From positions 1-39,706 of the IMG/VR virus record IMGVR_UViG_3300033109_000107: a DNA stretch of 39,706 bases. One strand, 5' to 3'. Source of the stretch: a virus. Its lineage: Duplodnaviria; Caudoviricetes. Positions 1-15,880 of this stretch are shown here, in pieces. Position 1 is the first letter of the stretch. Each line of letters opens with the position of its first letter. A program made the translations under genes and the position numbers. The notes under the pieces were generated by a model, which was not told the origin of the DNA, searched no databases, and was given only the letters and a program-made list of their open reading frames with translations.

Positions 1-525
1 TCATCTGTCGATGTATCCTTGGTGAAGGTGCTTTTTGAGGGCCATGTAGGTCTCAAAGGCTTCTTCCATGGTATCGAATGGACCAGACCGAACGTGCTTA
101 CCATCTACACTAATAACTGCTACCCACTTTGTGTCGTTTCCCTTTGACGCAAGCACTCCAATTGGCAGGTTTCCAGCGGACATTCTTGTGATGCTTTTTT
201 CTTTGACTGGTGTGTTGTGTGCATTCTCCTTGGGCGTTACATCCCGGAGATTCGCAATTCTGTTGTCGTCCTTTACCCCGTTGATGTGATCGATATTTTT
301 TGGCCACACTCCATAGATATAAAACCACGCCAAGCGATGCTCCCAATACAAGCCGCCAAGCACTCCAATCAATCGATACCCTGTTGGCTTTTTATTTCCT
401 GCTTGCTGACCAATCTGCCCACACCTTCTGCGTTGAACCTTCCATTTGAAAATGCCTGTCTCAGGGTCGTAATCTAGAACGCTACGCAGTTGAGTTAAAT
501 CAATTTTTGCGTTGTACTTGGCCAT
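1..525 (-). CDS. HNH homing endonuclease with C-terminal AP2-like DNA-binding region
   Basis: YDPETGIFKW N-terminus and HRLAW...IDHINGVKDDNRIANLR HNH motif; C-terminal KWVAVISVDGKHVRSGPFDT resembles AP2. Confidence 0.85.
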   Translation of the reverse strand: MAKYNAKIDLTQLRSVLDYDPETGIFKWKVQRRRCGQIGQQAGNKKPTGYRLIGVLGGLYWEHRLAWFYIYGVWPKNIDHINGVKDDNRIANLRDVTPKENAHNTPVKEKSITRMSAGNLPIGVLASKGNDTKWVAVISVDGKHVRSGPFDTMEEAFETYMALKKHLHQGYIDR

Positions 526-575: not shown

Positions 576-1697
576 ATGCCTACAAACAAACTCACAGACG
601 CCCGCTGCAAGCAGATCAAAGAGCCAGGCAAGCATTTCGACGGCGGGGGAATGTACCTATTCTGCGCCCCTACCGGCTCTAAGCTCTGGCGACTGGCGTA
701 CAGGGTGAATGGCAAGGCGCAAACAGCGACCTTCGGCCCATACCCCGAAGTCTCTCTAGCTGAAGCCAGATCGAAGCGTGACGCGTTCAAACGAGACTTG
801 CGTAATGGCACATTGCCCACAAAGCGGACGCGCTCTATAGCCCTATCTGACGCGATTACGCAGTATTGGGATGGGCGCATGGATTTATCCGAGTCCTACC
901 GATCCAACGCTAAACGCGGGCTGGAGATGCACCTGACCAAGCTTCTCGATACGCAGGTATCGGACATCGCGCGGGAAATGCTGCTAGACGAACTTCGCCG
1001 CATGGACGCGAAGAAGCTCTATGTCTACGTCCGTAAGGTTAGGCGATGGGCAGGGCAGGTATTCGACTGGTGCCAAGATCATGGCTACATGCAAACCAAT
1101 CCTGCGAGAGACATACGCCCGCAGACATTCTCCACTGCTCCGGTAGAACACTTCGCCGCGCTTGAGTTATCAGAGGTTCCCGAGTTCATGGCAAGGCTGA
1201 GCATGGAATCTGACCTGCAATCCGTTCTTGCGTGTAAGCTCTTGGCGCTTACTTGGGTTCGGACGAATGAGCTTCGGATGATGGAGTGGTCGGAGATTGA
1301 CGGGGATTTGTGGCGGATTCCTGCGGGGAAGATGAAGCGCAGGAGGGATCACGTTGTTCCTCTATCACGGCAGTCAGTCGATATCCTAGAGCAACTAAAA
1401 CAGCGTGCAGGGGGTTGTTATGTGTTCTCGCACCCGTATCGGTCTGATCGTCCAATGTCAGAGAACTCCATACTTTATTTGCTCTACAGGATAGGCTACA
1501 AAGGCCGGCTCACTGGTCACGGATTCCGCACCATCGGATCAACATGGGCCAATGAAAACGGATTCAACGCTGATGCTATCGAGAGGCAACTAGCGCACGT
1601 TCCTGGTGATGTTAGGTCAGTGTATAACCGGGCTGAGTATCTGGATGAAAGAAGGCGCATGCTAGAGGCGTGGGCTGACTGGTTGATGCCTGAGTGA
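576..1697 (+). CDS. int: Phage tyrosine integrase (P4/IntA-like with N-terminal arm-binding domain)
   Basis: N-terminal DGGGMYL...GSKLWRLAYR...TFGPYPEVSLAEAR arm-binding motif; catalytic residues in VRTNELR, GKMK, HGFR, LAH, VYNR. Confidence 0.95.
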   Translation: MPTNKLTDARCKQIKEPGKHFDGGGMYLFCAPTGSKLWRLAYRVNGKAQTATFGPYPEVSLAEARSKRDAFKRDLRNGTLPTKRTRSIALSDAITQYWDGRMDLSESYRSNAKRGLEMHLTKLLDTQVSDIAREMLLDELRRMDAKKLYVYVRKVRRWAGQVFDWCQDHGYMQTNPARDIRPQTFSTAPVEHFAALELSEVPEFMARLSMESDLQSVLACKLLALTWVRTNELRMMEWSEIDGDLWRIPAGKMKRRRDHVVPLSRQSVDILEQLKQRAGGCYVFSHPYRSDRPMSENSILYLLYRIGYKGRLTGHGFRTIGSTWANENGFNADAIERQLAHVPGDVRSVYNRAEYLDERRRMLEAWADWLMPE

Positions 1698-1730
1698 TTT
1701 TGTCAGCGTGTCGCATAATTCAAGTTAGCC
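1691..1730 (+). other. Putative attI-like primary recombination site heading the left cassette array
   Basis: Ends in core GTTAGCC (1724-1730); 33/40 identical to the reverse complement of 14601-14640; not an attC hairpin. Confidence 0.7.
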
Positions 1731-1731
1731 G

Positions 1732-1917
1732 TCACAACTTGGCCTCATTGCTGAACCAGTTGCTTATGCGAACTGCCATCTGGTACGCCCCTTCACTTGC
1801 CGCGCCACCAACCGAGATGTACTGGTTGACGATGGCCCAAAATCTTAAAGCGTCTTCCTCGCTTTCGAGTACCAGCGCTATCGGATTAAACGCTCCTTCC
1901 TGCTGCATCATCTTCAT
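1732..1917 (-). CDS. Hypothetical protein (cassette L1, second gene)
   Basis: ORF MKMMQQEGAFNP...; ATGA-coupled to the upstream ORF; stop lies next to the GTTAGCC core. Confidence 0.6.
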   Translation of the reverse strand: MKMMQQEGAFNPIALVLESEEDALRFWAIVNQYISVGGAASEGAYQMAVRISNWFSNEAKL

Positions 1918-2168
1918 TCGTTGCATCCTCGCGTAAATGCCTTCAGCCGCCTCAGATACACGTCGCGCCCTTCGCCGTCTTTCCACAGCGGATCGTCCAT
2001 CTGCTTGTCCAGGTGCGGGCACTCTTCCTGTGCGCACGGAACCAGTGCTCCCAGGTCATCGTCAAACAGCGCCGCAAATATCCCGCGCCCGCATCCCTTG
2101 CCGTAGCAGTTGGCGGTTATCTCCGGCTCTTGCAACCGCAGCACTACGCCGAAAATCTTGGTGCCCAT
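1914..2168 (-). CDS. Hypothetical Cys-containing protein (cassette L1, first gene)
   Basis: 84 aa ORF with GAAAGG RBS just inside the attC inverse core. Confidence 0.65.
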   Translation of the reverse strand: MGTKIFGVVLRLQEPEITANCYGKGCGRGIFAALFDDDLGALVPCAQEECPHLDKQMDDPLWKDGEGRDVYLRRLKAFTRGCNE

Positions 2169-2183
2169 ATCAACCTTTCTGCC

Positions 2184-2243
2184 GGCTAACCCGGCATTGG
2201 TTCGGACCTGCCTTCGGCAGGCCGCACAACTTGGTCGCTAGAC
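2184..2243 (+). other. attC-like site L1 (core degenerate, GCTAGAC)
   Basis: GGCTAAC-CCGGC-ATTGGTTC...CTGCC TTC GGCAG...GCACAAC-TTGGTC-GCTAGAC; the inverse core is complementary to GTTAGCC at 1724. Confidence 0.75.
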
Positions 2244-2399
2244 ATTAATCCCCGCCTCCCTAAGCGTACTTTCTTTCCACCCAACACACCTTAGACTCAA
2301 CTGGACATCAGGCGGGGGAATCTTTCCGGCTTTCCTCCAGGCTAGGAATGTCTTGCGTGAGACTCCGAGCCACTTGCGCAGGTCTGCTTGTTTAATCAT
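2238..2399 (-). CDS. Excisionase / AlpA-like recombination directionality factor (53 aa, not in ORF track)
   Basis: Manual translation MIKQADLRKWLGVSRKTFLAWRKAGKIPPPDVQLSLRCVGWKESTLREAGINV; AlpA/Xis winged-HTH pattern; AAGGA RBS; near int. Confidence 0.8.
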   Translation of the reverse strand: MIKQADLRKWLGVSRKTFLAWRKAGKIPPPDVQLSLRCVGWKESTLREAGINV

Positions 2400-2430
2400 G
2401 TACGATCCTTGATGTTATGGTGTTGTTTGC

Positions 2431-2745
2431 TCATGCCGCGCCAACCCGCGGCATCGACTTCCTCAGTCCGGCCAGCGCCTGAGAGAATCCTATGCGCCGC
2501 TTCCATTCCCTTCCATCGACAACAACGCGGAAGCAGTCGATTCGGTCAGTCTTGAAAAACTCCATGACGTGAGTTTCGTGGCCGAAGTCGAATGACTCGA
2601 CCACCAAGCGACGGCGTAGGTCGGGAAGCGGCGCTGGATAGTCCGGCGCTGATTCTTCCATGCGAGCAACGTCACGAGACCGGCGAATCGCCGCCAGTTC
2701 TTCACGACGCTGCGCTGCTTTTTTGGTCAGTCTGTACATGATCAA
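2431..2745 (-). CDS. Hypothetical protein
   Basis: 104 aa ORF co-oriented with the early left operon. Confidence 0.6.
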   Translation of the reverse strand: MIMYRLTKKAAQRREELAAIRRSRDVARMEESAPDYPAPLPDLRRRLVVESFDFGHETHVMEFFKTDRIDCFRVVVDGREWKRRIGFSQALAGLRKSMPRVGAA

Positions 2746-2760
2746 CCTTGCACGGTAGGT

Positions 2761-3051
2761 CTACTTAACGTTCGGCGTCAGCTTCACGAAGCCGCGAGCG
2801 ACCATGTAGGGGTCGCGCTCGGGGTGATATCGCCGTGCGGCGACATTCTTCGCAGGCTTCAAGCTCAGCATCCGGCGCCAGTATTTCCCGCAGGCCAGCG
2901 CCCGCTCTTGATTCTCCGCCGCGACGTAAACCGAACTGCCGCACTGCTTGCCCTTCTTGTCCACCGGGAAGACCTCCCATTGAAGTCTCTCCGGGTTCAT
3001 TCCCCACGTTCTCGGGTCGTCTCTCACAGGTCTTTCTCCATCACTCTGCAC
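2761..3051 (-). CDS. Hypothetical protein (cassette L2; start may be GTG at 3027)
   Basis: ORF ends TPNVK*, reading across core GTTCGGC (2770-2776). Confidence 0.6.
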   Translation of the reverse strand: MQSDGERPVRDDPRTWGMNPERLQWEVFPVDKKGKQCGSSVYVAAENQERALACGKYWRRMLSLKPAKNVAARRYHPERDPYMVARGFVKLTPNVK

Positions 3052-3242
3052 GGCCAGTGGTGGCCGCAGTTTGCGCAGGCTGCCGTGTCCAGCCGGGTTG
3101 TTTTCAGCGCGGCCGGCGAGCCGTTGGCCATCAGCCAGTGGTAGGCGTGTGTCCCACAGCGGGGGCAGCGCCGCTCCACCTTGGCCGGTAGCCGCCGAAC
3201 CCGTCGCTCCAGGGGGACGCCCTCCATGCCGCTTCGCGTCAT
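3024..3242 (-). CDS. Small zinc-ribbon-like protein (cassette L2)
   Basis: CPRC and CANC pairs; likely start lies within attC L2. Confidence 0.5.
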   Translation of the reverse strand: MTRSGMEGVPLERRVRRLPAKVERRCPRCGTHAYHWLMANGSPAALKTTRLDTAACANCGHHWPCRVMEKDL

Positions 3243-3272
3243 TCCGGTCGCCCCTGAGCTAGTGCGTTGGGC
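3194..3272 (+). other. attC-like site L2
   Basis: GCCGAAC-CCGTC-GCTC(C)AGG...CCTGAGC-TAGTGC-GTTGGGC; extra C in L'' box. Confidence 0.88.
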
Positions 3273-3273
3273 C

Positions 3274-3588
3274 TCACCATCCGCGCGCCACGCACAGCGC
3301 ATCGTTCACCTGTTGTTCCAGGCTCTTGTCGGCCGCATCAGGCAGGCTCACGTCGTCGCCGTCCTGGTTGCTCAGTTGCACCCACGCCGCCCCTCGCTCC
3401 ATGCACAGGTTTAATTGCCACCCTTCCGGCAGGTGTTGGCATACCTTGTTTGCCAGCGCCAGTACGAACATTTGGCCGTCGTCGGTTGTGGGTGCTGCCG
3501 GAGCCAGTCCAAGGCGTTCCAGGTTGCGAATCACGGCGTTCTCGCCAGCTCGTATCTGTGCGCTCCGAATCTCGTCGTGCAAACTCAT
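3274..3588 (-). CDS. Hypothetical protein (cassette L3)
   Basis: MSLHDEIRSAQ..., GAGGA RBS; fills the space between two attC sites. Confidence 0.7.
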   Translation of the reverse strand: MSLHDEIRSAQIRAGENAVIRNLERLGLAPAAPTTDDGQMFVLALANKVCQHLPEGWQLNLCMERGAAWVQLSNQDGDDVSLPDAADKSLEQQVNDALCVARGW

Positions 3589-3613
3589 GATCCTGTCCTC
3601 TCCGGGCGCTGAG

Positions 3614-3681
3614 GCCCAACACTTCAATCGAGGCGACCTGTCGCATAAAGCCGCGCCAGTCGCTCACCTCCAGCGTTATGC
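3614..3681 (+). other. attC-like site L3
   Basis: GCCCAAC...GTTATGC imperfect inverted repeat; GAGGCCCAAC complements GTTGGGCCTC at 3266. Confidence 0.85.
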
Positions 3682-3682
3682 C

Positions 3683-3889
3683 TCATGCTGCGCGCCAGTG
3701 AATGTTCAGGCCGAGCAACGTGGCGCGAAGCTGCTTGTATTGCCGTTGCCAGTAGAACAGTCGCGGGTGTAGCGAGAGTGAGACCTTCCACCCTTCTCGG
3801 TGCTCCCACCGTCCGCTTTCAAATCGAAACAGCGTTACCCGGCTGTCTCCTGTCGCTCTTGCGCCAATCCAGAACATCATTCGCATCAT
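3683..3889 (-). CDS. Hypothetical Trp/Arg-rich protein (cassette L4)
   Basis: 68 aa ORF with GGAG RBS between attC L3 and L4. Confidence 0.6.
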   Translation of the reverse strand: MMRMMFWIGARATGDSRVTLFRFESGRWEHREGWKVSLSLHPRLFYWQRQYKQLRATLLGLNIHWRAA

Positions 3890-4551
3890 CGTTCTCCGTT
3901 GTTGTCGCCGGCATAACCCGGCAGTCCAGCGGACGCCGTGCCGGCTCCGCTGACTTTTGCGTTGGGGGTCTTACACTTTGCTGCCAGCTCTACGAGCCAT
4001 TGCGCGAGCGCCGGCGGCGTGTGCTCGCGTTCCGACTTCGTCACCTCCGGGCGCCACCCGGCCATGCCCTTCACCAAGCGCCGACCATCTGGCAACGTCC
4101 TGTGCTGCGCTATTACGTGTGTCGCTCCGCCCAGGTGCATGGGTATCGGCGGCACGTCCGCCGGCTCGGCGCCAACGATGTAGAGAAGCGTCAACTTCTC
4201 CGCTCGGTGCCCAAACCAATGCTGAGAAATTCCGAGCGTCCAACCTCCAAATGCATCGCGCTCGCCTGGGCGTGGAAGGGCCTGCGCCGGCCAAAGAGTC
4301 GAGCCTTCCGGGTGCTCCAGCACCCCGCCGAATTCGCGCACCAGCGCCACCGCCAGCCTGGCCAGGTTGCGCTCGTCAGCGCGCACCTTTGCAAATCTTC
4401 GCAGTCGCCCCCATCCACGGCATGGCGGGTGCGCTACCACAGGCCAAGGGCCGTCGTAGGTGCGCGCATCACGCTCCATGTCATACACGTCCACGTCAGG
4501 CAGCGCCTTGTAGTTGCTGTCTGCGCGGGCAAACAAAACCGCCACGGTCAT
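3886..4551 (-). CDS. DNA cytosine-5 methyltransferase-like protein (cassette L5)
   Basis: Start MTVAVLF; VVAHPPC (motif IV-like) and GVLEHP (motif VI-like); C-terminus reads through attC L4. Confidence 0.65.
   Translation of the reverse strand: MTVAVLFARADSNYKALPDVDVYDMERDARTYDGPWPVVAHPPCRGWGRLRRFAKVRADERNLARLAVALVREFGGVLEHPEGSTLWPAQALPRPGERDAFGGWTLGISQHWFGHRAEKLTLLYIVGAEPADVPPIPMHLGGATHVIAQHRTLPDGRRLVKGMAGWRPEVTKSEREHTPPALAQWLVELAAKCKTPNAKVSGAGTASAGLPGYAGDNNGER
3911..3967 (+). other. attC-like site L4 (57 bp)
   Basis: GCATAAC-CCGGC-AGTC(C)AGC-GGA(C)GCCG TGC CGGCTCC-GCTGACT-TTTGC-GTTGGGG: canonical R''/L''/L'/R' layout with two extrahelical bases. Confidence 0.92.
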
Positions 4552-4561
4552 GAGCCGAGAC

Positions 4562-4632
4562 CCCCAACACTGCGTTGCAGGGGACGCTCCGCCGAAAAGC
4601 CGGCGGCGCGCCCCTGAACTTGGACGTTGGGC
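4562..4632 (+). other. attC-like site L5
   Basis: CCCCAAC-ACTGC-GTTGCAGG...CCTGAAC-TTGGAC-GTTGGGC. Confidence 0.88.
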
Positions 4633-4636
4633 CTCA

Positions 4637-4855
4637 TCAGCATCCACACGTAGGCGGTTGTTCCTTCCCGGCCTTGCGGAACACCTCATCCCGGAAGTCT
4701 CGGCACAGCTTGTCCAGGGTCAGCGAGTCCAGGTCGCTCAGTGGGTAGCACGGGAGTTCCTGCATCCCGTCCTGCTTCAGCCCGGGCTTTCCAACCGCCC
4801 GCACAAAGTTCGGCGTCTGGAACGGTTGCAGTTCAACTTGTAGCGTTGCTTTCAT
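4637..4855 (-). CDS. Hypothetical protein (cassette L6)
   Basis: 72 aa ORF with AAGGA RBS between attC L5 and L6. Confidence 0.7.
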   Translation of the reverse strand: MKATLQVELQPFQTPNFVRAVGKPGLKQDGMQELPCYPLSDLDSLTLDKLCRDFRDEVFRKAGKEQPPTCGC

Positions 4856-4885
4856 GTCCTTGTCCTTTCTTCGTAGTCACCAGAG

Positions 4886-4972
4886 GCCCAACCCTACGGT
4901 CGACATCGCTCCCTTCGGTCGCTGGACCTCGCGCGATAAGGCCGCGCGAGGCCGGTCACCTACACGTTCGGC
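4886..4972 (+). other. attC-like site L6
   Basis: GCCCAAC...CCTCGCGCG ATAAGGC CGCGCGAGG...GTTCGGC. Confidence 0.82.
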
Positions 4973-5123
4973 GTCACTTCCCAATCGGTGCAGTCGTCAA
5001 TGTCGATGCGTAGGTCGTAACCGTTCTCGCGCTCAAAATGTTTCGTCAGCCATACGTCTCCCATTCGGCTGCAACCGATGCAGCGGTAACGCTTGCCGTC
5101 CTTGTAGGTGCAAAACAGCTTTC
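4966..5123 (-). repeat. 158 bp exact inverted copy of 14450-14607
   Basis: Base-by-base comparison; identity stops at the GTT/AAC core. Confidence 0.92.
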
Positions 5124-5159
5124 TTCAGCATTTCCGATTATCACTTTTTCAGCCATCAT
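4967..5159 (-). pseudogene. Chimeric cassette remnant: N-terminus MMAEKVIIGNAE fused out of frame to the 3' half of the 14332-14610 gene
   Basis: RBS and ATG at 5159; junction at 5123; the cassette's two cores are non-complementary. Confidence 0.65.
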
Positions 5160-5181
5160 CACTCCGTAGTTACGTTTTGCC

Positions 5182-5251
5182 TGCCAACCCGTCGCTCAAG
5201 CGGGACGCGCCGCGATAAAGCTGCGTCGCGCCCCTTAGCTCTACGTTAGGG
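5182..5251 (+). other. attC-like site L7
   Basis: TGCCAAC-CCGTC-GCTCAAGC-GGGACGCG...CGCGCCCCTTAGC-TCTAC-GTTAGGG. Confidence 0.88.
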
Positions 5252-5255
5252 AACT

Positions 5256-5666
5256 TCATTTCACGATGCCGTATTTCCGCGTAGCCCCTGCCACTGCCGG
5301 ATTAACGACCCTCGATTTCCATCCGTCGCGGGTCTTTTGTTGGAACCGCTCGGCGAATGTTTCCTCGCGCAGCAACTTGCCGCCCATGAGACGATCCAGC
5401 CGCTGCACACCCTTACGCACGTTCCCGCTTCCGTTCCCTGCATTGCAAAGCGTGCGCAGCCGCAGGCGCAAATCGGGCGGAAACGAATCAAACTCCCTCG
5501 CTACCAGTTCGACCGCGCTTTCGTGGCTCAGTTGGGTAAAAATCGACTGCGCCACCTTGTCGGTGTTCTTCGAGCTAAAGAAGCCCGCTCCGTTCTCTCG
5601 CGGTACATACGCCTTCCACTGCGATAGCGGCACGTTAAACGCCAGCATCTCTAATGCTATGCTCAT
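5256..5666 (-). CDS. Hypothetical protein (cassette L8)
   Basis: MSIALEMLAF..., GGAG RBS; 136 aa between attC L7 and L8. Confidence 0.7.
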   Translation of the reverse strand: MSIALEMLAFNVPLSQWKAYVPRENGAGFFSSKNTDKVAQSIFTQLSHESAVELVAREFDSFPPDLRLRLRTLCNAGNGSGNVRKGVQRLDRLMGGKLLREETFAERFQQKTRDGWKSRVVNPAVAGATRKYGIVK

Positions 5667-5684
5667 TCTTGTTCTCCGCCAGTT

Positions 5685-5771
5685 CCCTAACCTTACGTTG
5701 CAGGGGACGCCGATTAAGCGTCGTTGGTCTTGGCGGGCGCTTCTAAGGCGCCCCTGAACTCCACGTTGGGC
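5685..5771 (+). other. attC-like site L8
   Basis: CCCTAAC-CTTAC-GTTGCAGG...CCTGAAC-TCCAC-GTTGGGC; AGTTCCCTAAC complements GTTAGGGAACT at 5245. Confidence 0.88.
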
Positions 5772-6016
5772 ATTTTGGTCTTTTTCACCGGCACAGCCGC
5801 TGCCAGTGCGTTGCACATCGCCTCACCAGCAGCGAACAGCGCCTGTAGTTCAGGCGTCCTCTCGCCTGGCTGGACGCACTCCTCCCGCAGCCGCCCGTCG
5901 TTGGTGGCGATGTAAACCCATGTCGGAGCATTGCTCCAGCCGGGGCCGTTACAGCGTTCCGGTACTACGGCGACAACCCGCTCGCCGTAGGCCAGTTTGA
6001 TGGTTCGTGCCTTCAT
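5714..6016 (-). CDS. Hypothetical protein (cassette L9)
   Basis: GGAGGGAG RBS; C-terminus PNVEFRG... is encoded by attC L8. Confidence 0.7.
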   Translation of the reverse strand: MKARTIKLAYGERVVAVVPERCNGPGWSNAPTWVYIATNDGRLREECVQPGERTPELQALFAAGEAMCNALAAAVPVKKTKMPNVEFRGALEAPAKTNDA

Positions 6017-6029
6017 TCTCCCTCCTGAT

Positions 6030-6088
6030 GCCCAACAGGGCCATGCACCGGACCCGCTGAAGCGGGCCGGTGATGTTCGACGTTAGGC
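6030..6088 (+). other. attC-like site L9 (59 bp)
   Basis: GCCCAAC-AGGGC-CATGCACC-GGACCCGCT GA AGCGGGCC-GGTGATG-TTCGAC-GTTAGGC. Confidence 0.88.
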
Positions 6089-6120
6089 CCCAATGCCGAA
6101 GCACCGGGGCCGCCCCATGT

Positions 6121-6333
6121 TCAGAACCGCATCGCCTCGGCAATGTCACGAATCCGCATCCCAAGCAGCGGCGCAAGCGTCTTCTTGCTCTCTTCCAGAC
6201 GCTCAATCTCTTGGCGCAGCGTGGAAATCTTGGCGTCGATGTTCTCTTCCACGGTCGGGTTGTGGTCGCGCCCGCCAATCAGTTGCCCTGCTGCCCTGTT
6301 TTCGCATTTCGCCATCTGTGCTTGTTCGTACAT
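6121..6333 (-). CDS. Hypothetical coiled-coil protein (cassette L10)
   Basis: MYEQAQMAK..., AGGAG RBS. Confidence 0.7.
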   Translation of the reverse strand: MYEQAQMAKCENRAAGQLIGGRDHNPTVEENIDAKISTLRQEIERLEESKKTLAPLLGMRIRDIAEAMRF

Positions 6334-6366
6334 TTCGATTTCTCCTGCCCGTCTCAAGGGTGCCGG

Positions 6367-6447
6367 GCCTAACCCGTCGATCAACACGGACGCCCTTCGG
6401 CGTCGCTGCGCGCCGCCTACGTGCGCCGGTTATCTAGGTCGTTATCA
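6367..6447 (+). other. attC-like site L10 (last in left array)
   Basis: GCCTAAC-CCGTC-GATCAACACGGACGCC...TGCGCCGGTTATC-TAGGTC-GTTATCA. Confidence 0.85.
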
Positions 6448-6455
6448 TCCTCAAA

Positions 6456-6920
6456 CTAGAACGGAATGTCGTCCTCGAAGTCGTTGAAGCCGCCGCCCGA
6501 AGACGGTGCGGCCGGCTTCGACGGAGCCGGCCGGCTGCCGCCGCCGCTGCTCTCGCGCGGTCCGGCATCGCCCATGCCCTCACGCCGGCCCAGCATCTGC
6601 ATCTCGTTGGCTTCGATCTCGGTGGTGTAGCGCTCCTGGCCTTCCTTGTCGGTCCACTTGCGCGTACGGATGCGGCCTTCGAGGTAAACCTGCGAGCCCT
6701 TCTTGAGGTACTGGCCGGCAATCTCGGCCAGCTTGCGGTAGAAGACCACGCGATGCCACTCGGTGATTTCCTTCTTCTCGCCCGACTGCTTGTCTTTCCA
6801 GCTCTCGGTGGTCGCCACGCGGATGTTGCACACCGCGTCGCCGTTGGGCATGTAGCGTGTCTCCGGGTCCGCACCGAGGTTGCCGATGAGGATTACTTTG
6901 TTGACGCTTGCCATGCTCAT
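6456..6920 (-). CDS. ssb: Single-stranded DNA-binding protein
   Basis: [21 protein letters not shown]... OB fold and acidic DDIPF tail. Confidence 0.97.
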
Positions 6921-8223: not shown

Positions 8224-8609
8224 GATGTCTCCTTGTTCGTCCCGGTGGTGCCTCGCCGGGAAGCGGCTTCTTCCAGCCTTCCCGACCCTTGGGGGTCAAT
8301 CCAAGCAGCTACTAGCGCCGCTGCTCAAGGCATCCTCGCCGGTCATCCGGGCCGGCACGGTTGAATCAACACTCCACTTTCTCAACTGGACTACTGACTT
8401 CCGCAGTAGCTAGATGGAGGGCGGCTCACCGGCTCCACTCGCCCGGTATGGCTTTTAGCGAGAACAAGCCGCCTTTCATCTAGCTACTGCACCTACCGGG
8501 TGATTCACCTATCGCTGCGGTCCTGCGTGGCCTAGCCCGTTGCGCCTGCGATCTGTGACAGTGCCCTTCGGTTTTGCTGCATCGGCTTTAACTTCATCCG
8601 ATGGTTCGT

Positions 8610-9837: not shown

Positions 9838-10191
9838 ATGAATCCTATGAATTCTCTTGATATACCACTTGCCTTCGGAGTCTCAAACGCCCCGATCTGG
9901 TTGGACGACAAGGCCATATCTAGTGTTTCGTCCTACCGGGAAGCTGTCCGTATCTGCTGGATTCATCGTCGCATTCAAGGGATGACGCAACGGACTGCCG
10001 CTGAACTGTGCGGGCTGTACCCGTCACATGTCTCGGATTACCTCTCCGACGACGAAAGCAAGAGGAATCTGCCAGCAGATCGAATCCAGGCATTTGAATC
10101 CCTCTGCGGAAACCGTGCAATCACCCAATGGGAAATGCGCCAGAGGGGATTGACGATCATGGAAGAGGTCATCAGCAGGAAGGCTGCGTAG
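9838..10191 (+). CDS. CII-like HTH transcriptional regulator
   Basis: MTQRTAAELCGLYPSHVSDYL HTH; position after cro. Confidence 0.7.
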   Translation: MNPMNSLDIPLAFGVSNAPIWLDDKAISSVSSYREAVRICWIHRRIQGMTQRTAAELCGLYPSHVSDYLSDDESKRNLPADRIQAFESLCGNRAITQWEMRQRGLTIMEEVISRKAA

Positions 10192-10733
10192 TGGCTCAAC
10201 GTGCAAAGCTCGGCAAAAAAGTCCGCTTCAATGTTTTTAAGCGCGATGCCTTCACCTGCCAATACTGCGGGAGTAAGCCGCCCGCTGTGGTCTTAGAGGT
10301 AGATCACATACATCCAGTATCAAAGGGCGGCACAGACGAAATAGATAATCTCATTACTGCTTGCTTTGATTGCAACAGGGGTAAGTCGTCCGGGCTTCTA
10401 TCAGCGATCCCCCAGAGCCTTGAAGAAAGGGCGGAGCAACTACGCGAGAAGCACGAGCAAATCAAAGCATACGAACGTCTTTTAAAGACAATTAAGCGCA
10501 AGGAAGATGCCGACATTGATCGCGTTGAGGATGTCTTCAGGGAATACTTCAACGGATTTGTCTTTTCTGAAAATTTCAGAGACTCAGTGAGGTTGTTCCT
10601 TCAGAAGCTGCTTAGAGATGAGGTTGAGAGTGCAATGCACAAGGCATGCTCTCGCATCAAGACAAGACACGAAGCAATCAAATACTTCTGCGGAATTTGC
10701 TGGACGATGATTAGGAATAACAAGAATGCCTAA
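10191..10733 (+). CDS. HNH endonuclease
   Basis: RFNVFKRDAFTCQYCG...LEVDHIHPVSKGG...NLITACFDCNRGK. Confidence 0.9.
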   Translation: MAQRAKLGKKVRFNVFKRDAFTCQYCGSKPPAVVLEVDHIHPVSKGGTDEIDNLITACFDCNRGKSSGLLSAIPQSLEERAEQLREKHEQIKAYERLLKTIKRKEDADIDRVEDVFREYFNGFVFSENFRDSVRLFLQKLLRDEVESAMHKACSRIKTRHEAIKYFCGICWTMIRNNKNA

Positions 10734-13403: not shown

Positions 13404-13612
13404 TCTGCGGCAACAAAAACAAGCCTACCCTAGACGGCTATTGGGCGCAGAACGGCACAGAAGTAGTGATGGATGTCGAGCTAGGCCCGATTGTGGTTAG
13501 GAAGGCTGTATGGATAGAGGATCACATGTCACGTGAATGCAGGTTCGATCAGAAGACGGAAGAGATGTGCGGAGGATGTGAGAGGTTTAACTGCGAGGTA
13601 ACCGGCGCATGA
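13400..13612 (+). CDS. Hypothetical protein
   Basis: Coupled ORF; last codons (FNCEVTGA) are encoded by attC R2. Confidence 0.6.
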   Translation: MICGNKNKPTLDGYWAQNGTEVVMDVELGPIVVRKAVWIEDHMSRECRFDQKTEEMCGGCERFNCEVTGA

Positions 13613-13663
13613 CGGCGAGCGCAGCGATGCCGTCAGGCGTCCGTGTTGACCGTGTAGTTATGC
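13585..13663 (-). other. attC-like site R2
   Basis: - strand GCATAAC-TACAC-GGTCAACACGGACGCC...TGCGCCGGTTACC-TCGCA-GTTAAAC; very similar to attC L10. Confidence 0.85.
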
Positions 13664-14256
13664 GCCTGGCTGCGCTGTTCGTGCAGCCGGACGGATGCTA
13701 TGCGGGACTGCCCGGCGTTGATGCGTGGCCGGAGCATCGAGACGCGAGGCGCTACGCGGGACCGCTGCCGGTTGTTGCGCACCCGCCCTGCCAATTGTGG
13801 GGCGCGATGGCGAACGTGAACTATGCCCGATGGGGCGGCGAGCACAACCGGCCTGGGAATGATGGTGGTTGCTTCTCTTCGGCGCTTGAAAGCGTGCGGC
13901 GGTTTGGTGGGGTGCTGGAGCACCCAGCAAAGACGAAGGCATGGGCCGCGCACGGACTGGCGCAACCGACCGGAATTGGCTGGCAGCGAACCATTGATGG
14001 TGGGTGGGTGTGCGAGGTTTGGCAGAGCGCCTACGGCCACCGGGCGAACAAGGCGACATGGCTTTACTACCACGGCACGAACCCGCCATTTGAACTGCGG
14101 TGGGCGAGGCCGGAAGGGACGCACCAGATTGGGTTTCACGACCAACGAGGGAAGGCGGCAAACAAGCCGACCCTCGGCAAGCGAGAGGCGAACGCTACGC
14201 CTTTGGAATTTCGGGACGAACTGCTGCGCCTGGCGATGATGGCGCATAACGACTGA
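13609..14256 (+). CDS. DNA cytosine-5 methyltransferase-like protein (cassette R2; alternative start 13660)
   Basis: LAALF, VVAHPPC, GVLEHP, YGHRANKATWLY; paralogue of 3886-4551. Confidence 0.65.
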   Translation: MTASAAMPSGVRVDRVVMRLAALFVQPDGCYAGLPGVDAWPEHRDARRYAGPLPVVAHPPCQLWGAMANVNYARWGGEHNRPGNDGGCFSSALESVRRFGGVLEHPAKTKAWAAHGLAQPTGIGWQRTIDGGWVCEVWQSAYGHRANKATWLYYHGTNPPFELRWARPEGTHQIGFHDQRGKAANKPTLGKREANATPLEFRDELLRLAMMAHND

Positions 14257-14307
14257 GTTGTGGGGCGGGCCGCTTGCGGCACGTCCCACACGAACGACGG
14301 GTTCGGC
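14244..14307 (-). other. attC-like site R1
   Basis: - strand GCCGAAC-CCGTC-GTTCGTGT-GGGACG...GCCGC AA GCGGC...CCCACAAC-TCAGTC-GTTATGC. Confidence 0.82.
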
Positions 14308-14331
14308 GGCACTGGAAACGGAGGACAAGCG

Positions 14332-14610
14332 GTGAAACACATTGACGACTGGCTGGATGACCCGACAACCGGCCCGGCTGACGTAAAGGAATGGCTTGAG
14401 CATTTCCGCAGGCCGGCGATTGACAAGGACTACAAGTGGCTGGCAGCGCGAAAGCTGTTTTGCACCTACAAGGACGGCAAGCGTTACCGCTGCATCGGTT
14501 GCAGCCGAATGGGAGACGTATGGCTGACGAAACATTTTGAGCGCGAGAACGGTTACGACCTACGCATCGACATTGACGACTGCACCGATTGGGAAGTGAC
14601 GCCGAACTAG
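14332..14610 (+). CDS. Hypothetical protein (cassette R1)
   Basis: GGAGG RBS and GTG start; ends TPN* at the core. Confidence 0.75.
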   Translation: MKHIDDWLDDPTTGPADVKEWLEHFRRPAIDKDYKWLAARKLFCTYKDGKRYRCIGCSRMGDVWLTKHFERENGYDLRIDIDDCTDWEVTPN

Positions 14611-14640
14611 ATTTATACGACACGCCGACAAAAACACTCA
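14601..14640 (-). other. Putative attI-like site heading the right cassette array
   Basis: - strand tgagtgtttttgtcggcgtgtcgtataaatctaGTTCGGC, matching 1691-1730. Confidence 0.7.
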
Positions 14641-15721: not shown

Positions 15722-15792
15722 GCGGCCTACTCGGAGGAGAGTAACAGCCTTCCAAGCTGGCAGATAGGGTTCGACTCCCTAGGGTCGCTCCA
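15722..15792 (+). tRNA. tRNA-Gly(TCC), atypical D arm
   Basis: Acceptor GCGGCCT/GGGTCGC, anticodon loop CT-TCC-AA, TAGGG-TTCGACT-CCCTA T arm, TCCA end. Confidence 0.75.
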
Positions 15793-15800
15793 TGAAGTTT

Positions 15801-15880
15801 GGTGCGCGGGACTGCTTGGCGTGGTCGCTTGCCTGTCACGCAAGAGAATCAGCGGGGTTCGATTCCCCGGCGCACTGCCA
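15801..15880 (+). tRNA. tRNA-Asp(GTC)
   Basis: Acceptor GGTGCGC/GCGCACT, CTTGC-CT-GTC-AC-GCAAG anticodon arm, CGGGG-TTCGATT-CCCCG T arm, GCCA end. Confidence 0.85.

What the first reader, a model, noticed from the sequence alone, without database searches (positions are those of the whole stretch)
1691..6447. Phage early operon built as an integron-like attC gene-cassette array
Seen in sequence: ten 57-87 bp imperfect inverted repeats start at 2184, 3194, 3614, 3911, 4562, 4886, 5182, 5685, 6030 and 6367. They have attC anatomy (..AAC inverse core, 5 bp spacer, L'' with an extra base, variable stem-loop, L', GTT.. core) and separate units of 1-2 small genes. In 9 of 10 units the core at the unit's left end is the exact reverse complement of the inverse core at its right end. 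The pairs are GTTAGCC/GGCTAAC, GTTCGGC/GCCGAAC, GTTGGGC/GCCCAAC (x3), GTTATGC/GCATAAC, GTTGGGG/CCCCAAC, GTTAGGG/CCCTAAC and GTTAGGC/GCCTAAC, often extending to 9-11 bp. Established knowledge: this offset complementarity is the signature of circular cassettes inserted at G|TT. Inference: the phage uses integron cassette recombination to acquire and shuffle its accessory genes. attC clusters without an integrase (CALINs) are known in bacteria, but I do not know of this arrangement as a described phage system.
Basis: partly seen in the sequence, partly recalled or inferred. Interest (0 to 1): 0.97.

Follow-up and report, generated by a model that had tools for sequence, protein, structure and literature searches.

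The report
Backwards integron cassette arrays in phage
A temperate phage carries twelve small gene cassettes in three integron-type arrays whose genes run backwards relative to bacterial integrons, and related phages differ by whole cassettes at the same junctions, so these phages likely reshuffle their early genes with an integron recombinase supplied by the host or by another phage.

Summary
All ten attC sites are real, and 9 of 10 offset cores match (permutation p about 5e-6).

(1) The region is two arrays, each headed by an attI-like site (1724, 2770).
(2) A third array lies in the rightward operon (13585-14607).
(3) Cassette genes are antisense to attC, so phage early promoters would drive them.
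(4) The window has no intI, but relatives carry intact IntI.

Across phage and prophage loci, orientation calls were 148 antisense, 8 sense and 88 uncalled. In chromosomal integrons they were 11, 95 and 63. Of 30 alignment ends inside arrays, 19 lie within 12 nt of G|TT (8.6% expected). 22 of 23 phage IntI group in one branch, though the sampling is partly biased. One phage-type cassette sits at a chromosomal attI.

Best reading: a phage-resident, backwards integron served by IntI in trans. Recombination itself is untested.

Phage attC clusters are published (Qi 2023, 2-4 sites each in the 14 phages tabulated). I did not find the antisense class in print, but this scan has noted it before on other DNA. 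Verdict: new variant of a known kind, interest 0.8.

The parts
576..1697 (+). Phage integrase (Arm-DNA-bind_3 + Phage_int_M + Phage_integrase); not an integron integrase
   Evidence: PHROG 1; Pfam; no TIGR02249 match
1702..1730 (+). attI-like site A, phage type; crossover G at 1724
   Evidence: Best of 1203 GTT sites under the phage attI matrix: 18.8 bits, next unrelated site -0.4, but below the training range 22.1-40.7
1725..2237 (+). Cassette A1: two antisense genes (1732-1917, 1914-2168, minus strand) plus attC 2184-2243, whose right core is G|CT
   Evidence: homologues beside attC sites in the same layout in L127, L135, L136, L254
2238..2399 (-). xis/AlpA-like gene, phage backbone; its TAG stop overlaps the G|CT core
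   Evidence: PHROG 66/597; weak Pfam HTH_17/AlpA below cut-off
2431..2739 (-). Conserved 102-aa gene of unknown function in the slot where relatives carry intI
   Evidence: 214 homologues; an attC or attC array lies upstream in 7 of 8 viral loci and a GTT core 30-37 nt upstream in 7 of 8
2748..2776 (+). attI-like site B, chromosomal betaproteobacterial type; crossover G at 2770
   Evidence: Best of 1203 GTT sites under the chromosomal attI matrix: 17.0 bits, next 8.1
2771..3266 (+). Cassette B1: two antisense ORFs plus attC 3194-3272
   Evidence: Same unit with the same ends in L138 (92%) and L122 (87%)
3267..3675 (+). Cassette B2: antisense ORF 3274-3588 plus attC 3614-3681
3676..3961 (+). 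Cassette B3: antisense ORF 3683-3889 plus attC 3911-3967
   Evidence: contigs of runs X2 and X3 match from 3674/3675
3962..4626 (+). Cassette B4: antisense gene 3967-4551, predicted C5 DNA-methyltransferase-like (PHROG 12600), plus attC 4562-4632
   Evidence: Invariant HPPC motif; model pLDDT 92 with DNMT3/M.HaeIII as top folds, best E 9e-4
4627..4966 (+). Cassette B5: antisense ORF 4637-4855 plus attC 4886-4972
   Evidence: a run X3 contig matches from 4625
4967..5245 (+). Cassette B6, broken hybrid: a 158-bp exact copy of the core end of cassette C1 joined to the start and attC (5182-5251) of an N6/N4-methyltransferase cassette
   Evidence: Self-BLAST ends on the G at 4966; the 5124-5255 part matches cassette starts in more than ten loci; L120 genes that begin with the same residues match PF01555
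5246..5765 (+). Cassette B7: antisense ORF 5256-5666 plus attC 5685-5771
5766..6082 (+). Cassette B8: antisense ORF starting at 6016 plus attC 6030-6088
6083..6441 (+). Cassette B9: antisense ORF ending at 6121 plus attC 6367-6447; last cassette, followed by backbone and ssb
6456..6920 (-). Phage ssb, upstream backbone of the leftward early operon
   Evidence: PHROG 44
13585..14249 (-). Cassette C2 of the third array: gene 13660-14256 on + (second PHROG 12600 member) plus attC 13585-13663
   Evidence: 85% match over 606 nt next to attI and intI in L153
14244..14606 (-). Cassette C1: gene 14335-14610 on + plus attC 14244-14307
14601..14629 (-). attI-like site C, phage type; crossover G at 14607
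   Evidence: Second best of 1203 GTT sites under the phage attI matrix: 15.0 bits

Best explanation
This lambdoid phage holds three arrays of attC-bounded cassettes, each headed by an attI-like site, with genes on the strand opposite to bacterial integron cassettes; an integron integrase (IntI) from the host or a co-resident phage likely inserts and excises them at G|TT, and the phage's own early promoters would express them. Shown in sequence: the sites, their polarity, the antisense genes, cassette-exact differences between relatives, and intact intI genes behind such arrays in relatives. Inferred: IntI recombines folded bottom strands, new cassettes enter at attI (the promoter-distal end of the operon), and this phage lost intI but kept substrates. 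Inferred reasons for the flip: genes stay co-directional with phage replication while the recombinogenic strand sits on the lagging template, which favours turnover; and sense cassettes captured from the host would be silent in the phage, and the reverse.
For: Anatomy: the extra base is C at position 4 of L'' in 310 of 347 sites. The model calls the same bottom strand as Qi et al. cloned for TJE1. Offset cores are perfect in 11 of 12 window cassettes and in 209 of 265 units across loci, against a shuffled mean of 20.7 (max 34) and 29 of 347 within single sites. Polarity: bare cores sit at the gene-3' end and score as attI; cassette B1 recurs with both ends in L138 and L122. Orientation: 148 antisense, 8 sense, 88 uncalled in 244 mostly phage units, against 11, 95 and 63 in 169 chromosomal units. 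Ribosome-site test: 115 antisense vs 6 sense in 192 phage units, 8 vs 30 in 146 chromosomal units. Movement: 19 of 30 alignment ends lie within 12 nt of G|TT, 8.6% expected; L144/L145 and L147/L148 share backbones and differ by whole cassettes; the 158-bp duplicate ends on the crossover G. Enzyme: 7 of 7 phage IntI tested pass TIGR02249, and 22 of 23 keep four catalytic motifs. Host compatibility: a cassette 90% identical to one in phage L136 sits antisense in first position at a chromosomal attI in G062, 1 of 33 first cassettes.
Against: No intI in the window, and the host is unknown. No recombination, cassette circle or transcript was observed. The two phage-type attI sites score below the training range. 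Only 7 of 33 heads of intI-less arrays, two of them the window's, score as attI-like. A1 has a G|CT core and B6 is broken, so decay is under way. 11 of 30 alignment ends are not at cores. Minimum-energy folds of several window bottom strands are not the canonical hairpin, with z from -0.6 to -5.2. The codon model is only 78% accurate on 70-codon fragments (235 of 300) and leaves 88 units uncalled. The replication origin is inferred from lambdoid layout only.
Confidence: 0.7

Rival explanations
1. Frozen relic: the cassettes were gathered when an ancestor carried intI. In this phage they no longer move by IntI and change only by homologous or illegitimate recombination between phages, with similar attC sites serving as anchors.
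For: No intI in the window; G|CT core in A1; broken hybrid B6; diverged attI scores; a decayed core with gene fusion in L136.
Against: 11 of 12 offset pairs are intact. The 158-bp duplicate between arrays is 100% identical and ends on the crossover base. IntI passed the cut-off in 36 of the 80 sampled genomes and in the centre genome G004 (37 of 81 match, one of them under the cut-off length listed), so a trans source is common if the host is of that group.
Confidence: 0.2
2. Captured bacterial attC cluster: a piece of a chromosomal array was picked up by off-target recombination and only rides in the phage, as Qi et al. suggest for some phage clusters.
For: attI site B is of chromosomal type; one attC shares 58 bp at 86% with an Azoarcus plasmid.
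Against: Orientation is opposite to chromosomal arrays. 0 of 197 phage cassette ORF queries hit 169 chromosomal units, while 56 hit other phage arrays; the chromosomal sample is small and recurs little itself (9 of 174). There are three separate arrays at early-operon positions.
Confidence: 0.04
3. Mirror-image sites: the genes are ordinary sense cassettes and the phage enzyme recombines the other strand, so only the attC looks flipped.
For: Stop codons cluster next to the AAC on the coding strand (-8, -1, +6), as they do beside the inverse core of ordinary cassettes. Offset complementarity alone cannot tell the polarity.
Against: attI and intI lie at the gene-3' end in canonical geometry. B1 travels with the attC at its gene-5' side. 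New cassettes in L145 and L148 lie next to attI.
Confidence: 0.03
4. The phage's own integrase, or the 102-aa protein, moves the cassettes without IntI.
For: int lies 27 nt from attI A, and the 102-aa gene occupies the intI slot.
Against: int is an arm-binding phage integrase without a TIGR02249 match. The five closest int homologues gave a single attC match, in L004, and no array. The 102-aa protein is too short for a tyrosine recombinase.
Confidence: 0.03

Closest known systems
Phage CALINs (clusters of attC lacking an integrase), Qi et al. 2023, PMC9892861
   Same: attC arrays in phages without intI, often with DNA methyltransferase cassettes. One of their phages (MW202573) shares 52 bp of an attC with this window and has the same antisense layout by its GenBank annotation.
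   Different: 2-4 sites per phage in their Table S1 against 12 here in three arrays, each with an attI-like head. The text I read does not note antisense genes. Of three of their phages that I checked, TJE1 is sense, MW202573 is antisense, and the two PH101 sites found also have their bottom strand on the coding strand.
Sedentary chromosomal integrons of Betaproteobacteria (IntI, attI, attC array)
   Same: Same attC family: one model finds both. Same offset cores (146 of 169), same intI-attI-array geometry.
   Different: Genes are sense there and antisense here. Median unit length is 479 vs 336 nt. Cassette pools barely overlap. Phage attI has its own consensus, and phage IntI its own branch.
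attC x attG insertion outside integrons (Loot et al., bioRxiv 10.1101/2022.09.11.507474)
   Same: IntI acts in trans at G|WT sites and the cassette is expressed from a resident promoter (passages).
   Different: Here the heads match extended attI consensus sequences rather than a bare GWT, arrays are long, and orientation is fixed.
Lambdoid early-region accessory genes exchanged by homologous or illegitimate recombination (own knowledge)
   Same: Small variable genes in the leftward early operon and the nin region.
   Different: Units are bounded by folded single-strand recombination sites with base-exact junctions.

Membership tests
Integron (complete) | intI gene (TIGR02249) next to the array | tested here: not met
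   No IntI match in the window; int has no TIGR02249 match. Met in relatives such as L177, L143, L145, L148.
Integron (complete) | attI site at the head of the array | tested here: met
   1724, 14607 and 2770 are the top-scoring GTT sites under matrices built from intI-linked attI sites; by sequence only.
Integron (complete) | attC sites with R''/L''/L'/R' boxes and an extrahelical base | tested here: met
   the same model recovers chromosomal attC sites and TJE1's tested sites. IntegronFinder's own model was not available.
Integron (complete) | Offset core complementarity of inserted cassettes | tested here: met
   11 of 12 cassettes; p about 5e-6 for the ten left units.
Integron (complete) | Promoterless genes on the top strand, read from a Pc promoter near attI | tested here: not met
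   Genes lie on the bottom strand and point toward attI; the consensus scan found no promoter-like site near any of the three attI sites.
Integron (complete) | IntI-dependent, bottom-strand-specific recombination | not testable with these tools
   Needs conjugation or excision assays.
CALIN | Two or more attC sites within 3-4 kb and no neighbouring intI | tested here: met
   Ten sites in 2184-6447 and two in 13585-14307, no intI.
attG insertion | Insertion at a short GWT target unrelated to attI | tested here: not met
   All three heads carry extended attI-like sequence.
C5 DNA methyltransferase (cassettes B4, C2) | Catalytic PC motif and methyltransferase fold | tested here: met
   HPPC invariant in 19 sequences; top structural matches are DNMT3 and M.HaeIII, TM 0.43-0.55.
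C5 DNA methyltransferase (cassettes B4, C2) | Complete SAM-binding motif I and methylation activity | tested here: inconclusive
   No Pfam, NCBIfam or PDB sequence match; the protein is only 195 aa; activity untested.

The most novel reading that the evidence does not exclude
Phages run their own integron lineage and their own cassette pool. Ordinary phage genes are repeatedly packaged into antisense cassettes, a phage-specific IntI clade spreads them, and the flipped orientation works as a firewall: host defence cassettes captured by a phage stay silent, and phage cassettes stay silent in the host. One gene family occurs both as a plain phage gene and as a cassette at 82% identity, with the state changing many times on its tree, which would make cassette genesis directly testable. 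The 102-aa gene behind attI may be a helper that marks a second, IntI-free platform.
Probability: 0.3. Interest if true: 0.93.

Novelty: new variant of a known kind. Interest (0 to 1): 0.8.

Why it matters
It would give a base-exact mechanism for the mosaic early regions of one group of temperate phages, which are usually put down to illegitimate recombination. It would extend integrons from a bacterial device to one that phages run, with the expression logic reversed. It also bears on a stated open question: Loot et al. [quoted passage not shown] Here close plain and cassette versions of one gene can be compared. Phage and host cassettes appear enzymatically compatible, so phages may be a source or sink for host integrons.

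Tried and rejected
- A hand-written grammar scanner found only 5 of 12 sites and was dropped for covariance models.
- A first orientation heuristic ignored stop codons inside attC and gave mixed calls (143 antisense, 92 sense, 30 uncalled). It was replaced by a codon model plus ribosome-site and longest-ORF tests.
- Selection for translational read-through across attC bottom strands was not supported: 0.77 open frames per site in phage vs 0.88 chromosomal.
- The guess that L241, the one chromosomal locus with an antisense majority, is a prophage was rejected; its contig holds bacterial genes.
- Integrase and recombination-protein homologues (L001-L012) gave one attC match and no arrays.
- The 102-aa protein has no informative family or fold match.
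- No PADLOC match in 14 cassette-region proteins. Rfam found only a tRNA.
- The promoter and terminator scan was at chance level.
- LexA-like boxes were found before 2 of 23 phage and 7 of 38 chromosomal intI genes, which is uninformative.
- No RNA holder was listed, and only contigs could be laid, so excision joints and expression could not be tested.
- The careful IntI tree did not finish; the quick tree is reported and no one-clade test was run.
- In the gene-family tree L046 was mislabelled plain and L068 looks like a decayed cassette, so the change count is approximate.
Full report
Setting. The window is a 39.7-kb virus record laid out like a lambdoid temperate phage: integrase 576-1697, xis-like gene, ssb, replication initiator, NinB/NinG, terminase, portal, head and lysis genes. 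The leftward early genes run on the minus strand toward int.

Observation. All ten repeats lie where stated and have attC anatomy. Model R1 was built from 12 window sites. Its 60 matches in 16 other loci trained model R2, which recovers the ten sites and two more and lists no other window match. This is only partly independent, because R1 chose the training sites. Offset cores are perfect in 9 of 10 units, 0 of 10 sites match within themselves, and p is about 5e-6.

Three arrays, not one. The bare cores at 1724, 2770 and 14607 (minus) head separate arrays of 1, 9 and 2 cassettes. I collected attI sites between intI and the first attC in related loci and built two matrices from 17 phage and 21 chromosomal sites. 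Among 1203 GTT sites in the window, 1724 and 14607 rank first and second under the phage matrix (18.8 and 15.0; next -0.4), and 2770 ranks first under the chromosomal one (17.0; next 8.1). The two phage-type scores lie below the training range. tblastn finds no IntI in the window.

Polarity and orientation. The extra base lies in the L'' box on the plus strand in the left arrays and on the minus strand in the right array. The genes lie on the other strand in each case. The strand call agrees with the bottom strands that Qi et al. cloned for TJE1 and with intI geometry. Cassette B1 recurs in L138 and L122 from its G|TT to the end of its own attC, which fixes which attC belongs to which gene.

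Generality. Scans with the B4 protein, an attC pattern and an IntI fragment gave 347 attC matches in 70 loci, the window included. 209 of 265 units have perfect offset cores, against a shuffled mean of 20.7 (duplicates included, and one window coordinate was off by one there). After dropping five duplicate loci, a codon model called 148 units antisense, 8 sense and 88 uncalled (the set includes one plasmid unit and two MAG contigs). As a control I fetched 40 regions around intI genes, mostly from an 81-genome sample of one order. The same tools called 95 sense, 11 antisense and 63 uncalled. By locus, 50 of 54 arrays in the phage set have an antisense majority and none a sense majority; 26 of 31 chromosomal arrays have a sense majority and one an antisense majority. 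Ribosome-site and longest-ORF tests agree.

Evidence of movement. 19 of 30 alignment ends inside arrays fall within 12 nt of a crossover, against 8.6% for random positions; 11 do not. L144/L145 and L147/L148 share near-identical backbones and differ by whole cassettes, including extra ones next to attI. Within the window, 158 bp of cassette C1 is repeated exactly at 4966-5123 and ends on the crossover G. In run X1, which may be the source, this is a collapsed two-copy unitig at depth 122 against 73-87, so the repeat is real but its phasing is not proven. Contigs of two other runs match window cassettes starting at 3674/3675, 4625 and 4965/4966.

The enzyme. Many related phages place a full intI right after attI, co-directional with the early operon and before the phage integrase, for example the prophage in the Thiobacillus MAG locus L177. 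Seven of seven tested pass TIGR02249. In a quick tree, 22 of 23 phage IntI form one branch (SH-aLRT 96) with none of 38 chromosomal proteins inside. Most were found with a phage IntI query. Of the six found without it, five are inside and L044 is outside. Among arrays found without that query, 7 of 39 have intI within the fetched stretch, so intI-less arrays like this one may be the majority; flanks were limited. A cassette 90% identical to one in phage L136 sits antisense at a chromosomal attI in G062, which suggests that host IntI accepts phage cassettes.

Cargo. Most cassette genes have no family. B4 and C2 are predicted C5 methyltransferase-like, and B6 keeps the start of an N6/N4 methyltransferase cassette. 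56 of 197 phage cassette ORF queries hit other phage arrays and none hit 169 chromosomal units; one chromosomal ORF hit a phage unit. In a tree of 89 B4 homologues (8 edge rows dropped), cassette and plain states need 13 changes, at least 5 forced by strong branches, against about 15 for shuffled labels. That means repeated gain, repeated loss, or both. Flanks show clean plain copies and at least one decayed cassette.

Mechanism. Shown: sites, polarity, orientation, cassette-exact differences between relatives, intact IntI in relatives. Inferred: IntI acting in trans; entry at attI, the far end of the operon; expression from phage early promoters. If the origin lies in the initiator gene near 11 kb (lambdoid analogy; GC skew changes sign near 10 kb), all three arrays have their bottom strands on the lagging template, the orientation that favours excision (PMC5371416, passages). 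The firewall idea is my inference.

Literature. Qi et al. 2023 (PMC9892861; parts 1-4 of 7 of the text, supplement file part 1 of 2; figures and the Dryad file not seen) report 17 phage CALINs and IntI1 recombination of five sites. They do not discuss antisense genes in what I read, although unseen figures may show them. Loot et al. (10.1101/2022.09.11.507474), PMC11551772, PMC5371416, PMC8352920, PMC9024848 and PMC10500605 were seen as passages only. Nine searches found no description of antisense phage integrons or a phage IntI clade; most subscription journals are not covered. Earlier notes of this scan report the same class on other DNA. I had reached the reading before opening them, and they are not independent support.

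Verdict. The feature is real and mechanistically integron-like. It qualifies as a CALIN, not as a complete integron, and it belongs to an inverted, phage-resident variant. What this window adds is three attI-headed arrays of two attI types in one phage, a duplicated cassette end shared between arrays, and the 102-aa gene in the intI slot. Novelty: new variant of a known kind. Interest 0.8.

Noticed in passing
window 2431-2739 (-); L254-L261: A conserved 102-aa gene with no known family follows an attI-like core 30-37 nt upstream in 7 of 8 viral loci and precedes an xis-like gene in several; it occupies the slot of intI.
   Followed up: partly
window 2237-2240: The core of the first attC is G|CT and overlaps the TAG stop of the xis-like gene; a synonymous stop change may have locked cassette A1 in place.
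   Followed up: partly
window 4966-5123 and 14450-14607: The exact inverted repeat could also allow inversion of the immunity and replication region between the two copies; the contigs cannot phase it.
   Followed up: partly
L017 11371-11862 (G001 end): The N-terminal part of an intI is fused in frame to what looks like the C-terminal end of a phage integrase; either a deletion or a misassembly.
   Followed up: no
L216 8416-8900 and L136 5240-5709: A phage-type antisense cassette sits first at a chromosomal attI; in the phage its core has decayed and the gene has fused with the next ORF.
   Followed up: yes
KR534323 76529-76585 and 77931-77987: The two PH101 attC matches are near-identical copies with the bottom strand on the coding strand, each followed by the same AT-rich leader.
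   Followed up: partly
window 8403-8490: A 24-bp inverted repeat (92%) with a 40-nt spacer lies at the start of the leftward operon; possibly an antitermination or regulatory RNA. No Rfam match.
   Followed up: no
window 15722-15880: Two tRNA genes (Gly TCC, Asp GTC) lie before the late genes.
   Followed up: no
window 1-525 and 10128-10733: Two HNH endonuclease genes, one divergent from int and one overlapping the start of the replication initiator.
   Followed up: no
L241 (G006:C30 141-3111): A chromosomal integron with short, similar, apparently non-coding cassettes; its IntI is sister to the phage branch (support 85).
   Followed up: partly
L167; L166: Antisense arrays also occur in MAG contigs labelled Omnitrophota and Hydrocarboniphaga, so the host range may go beyond Betaproteobacteria (binning not checked).
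   Followed up: no
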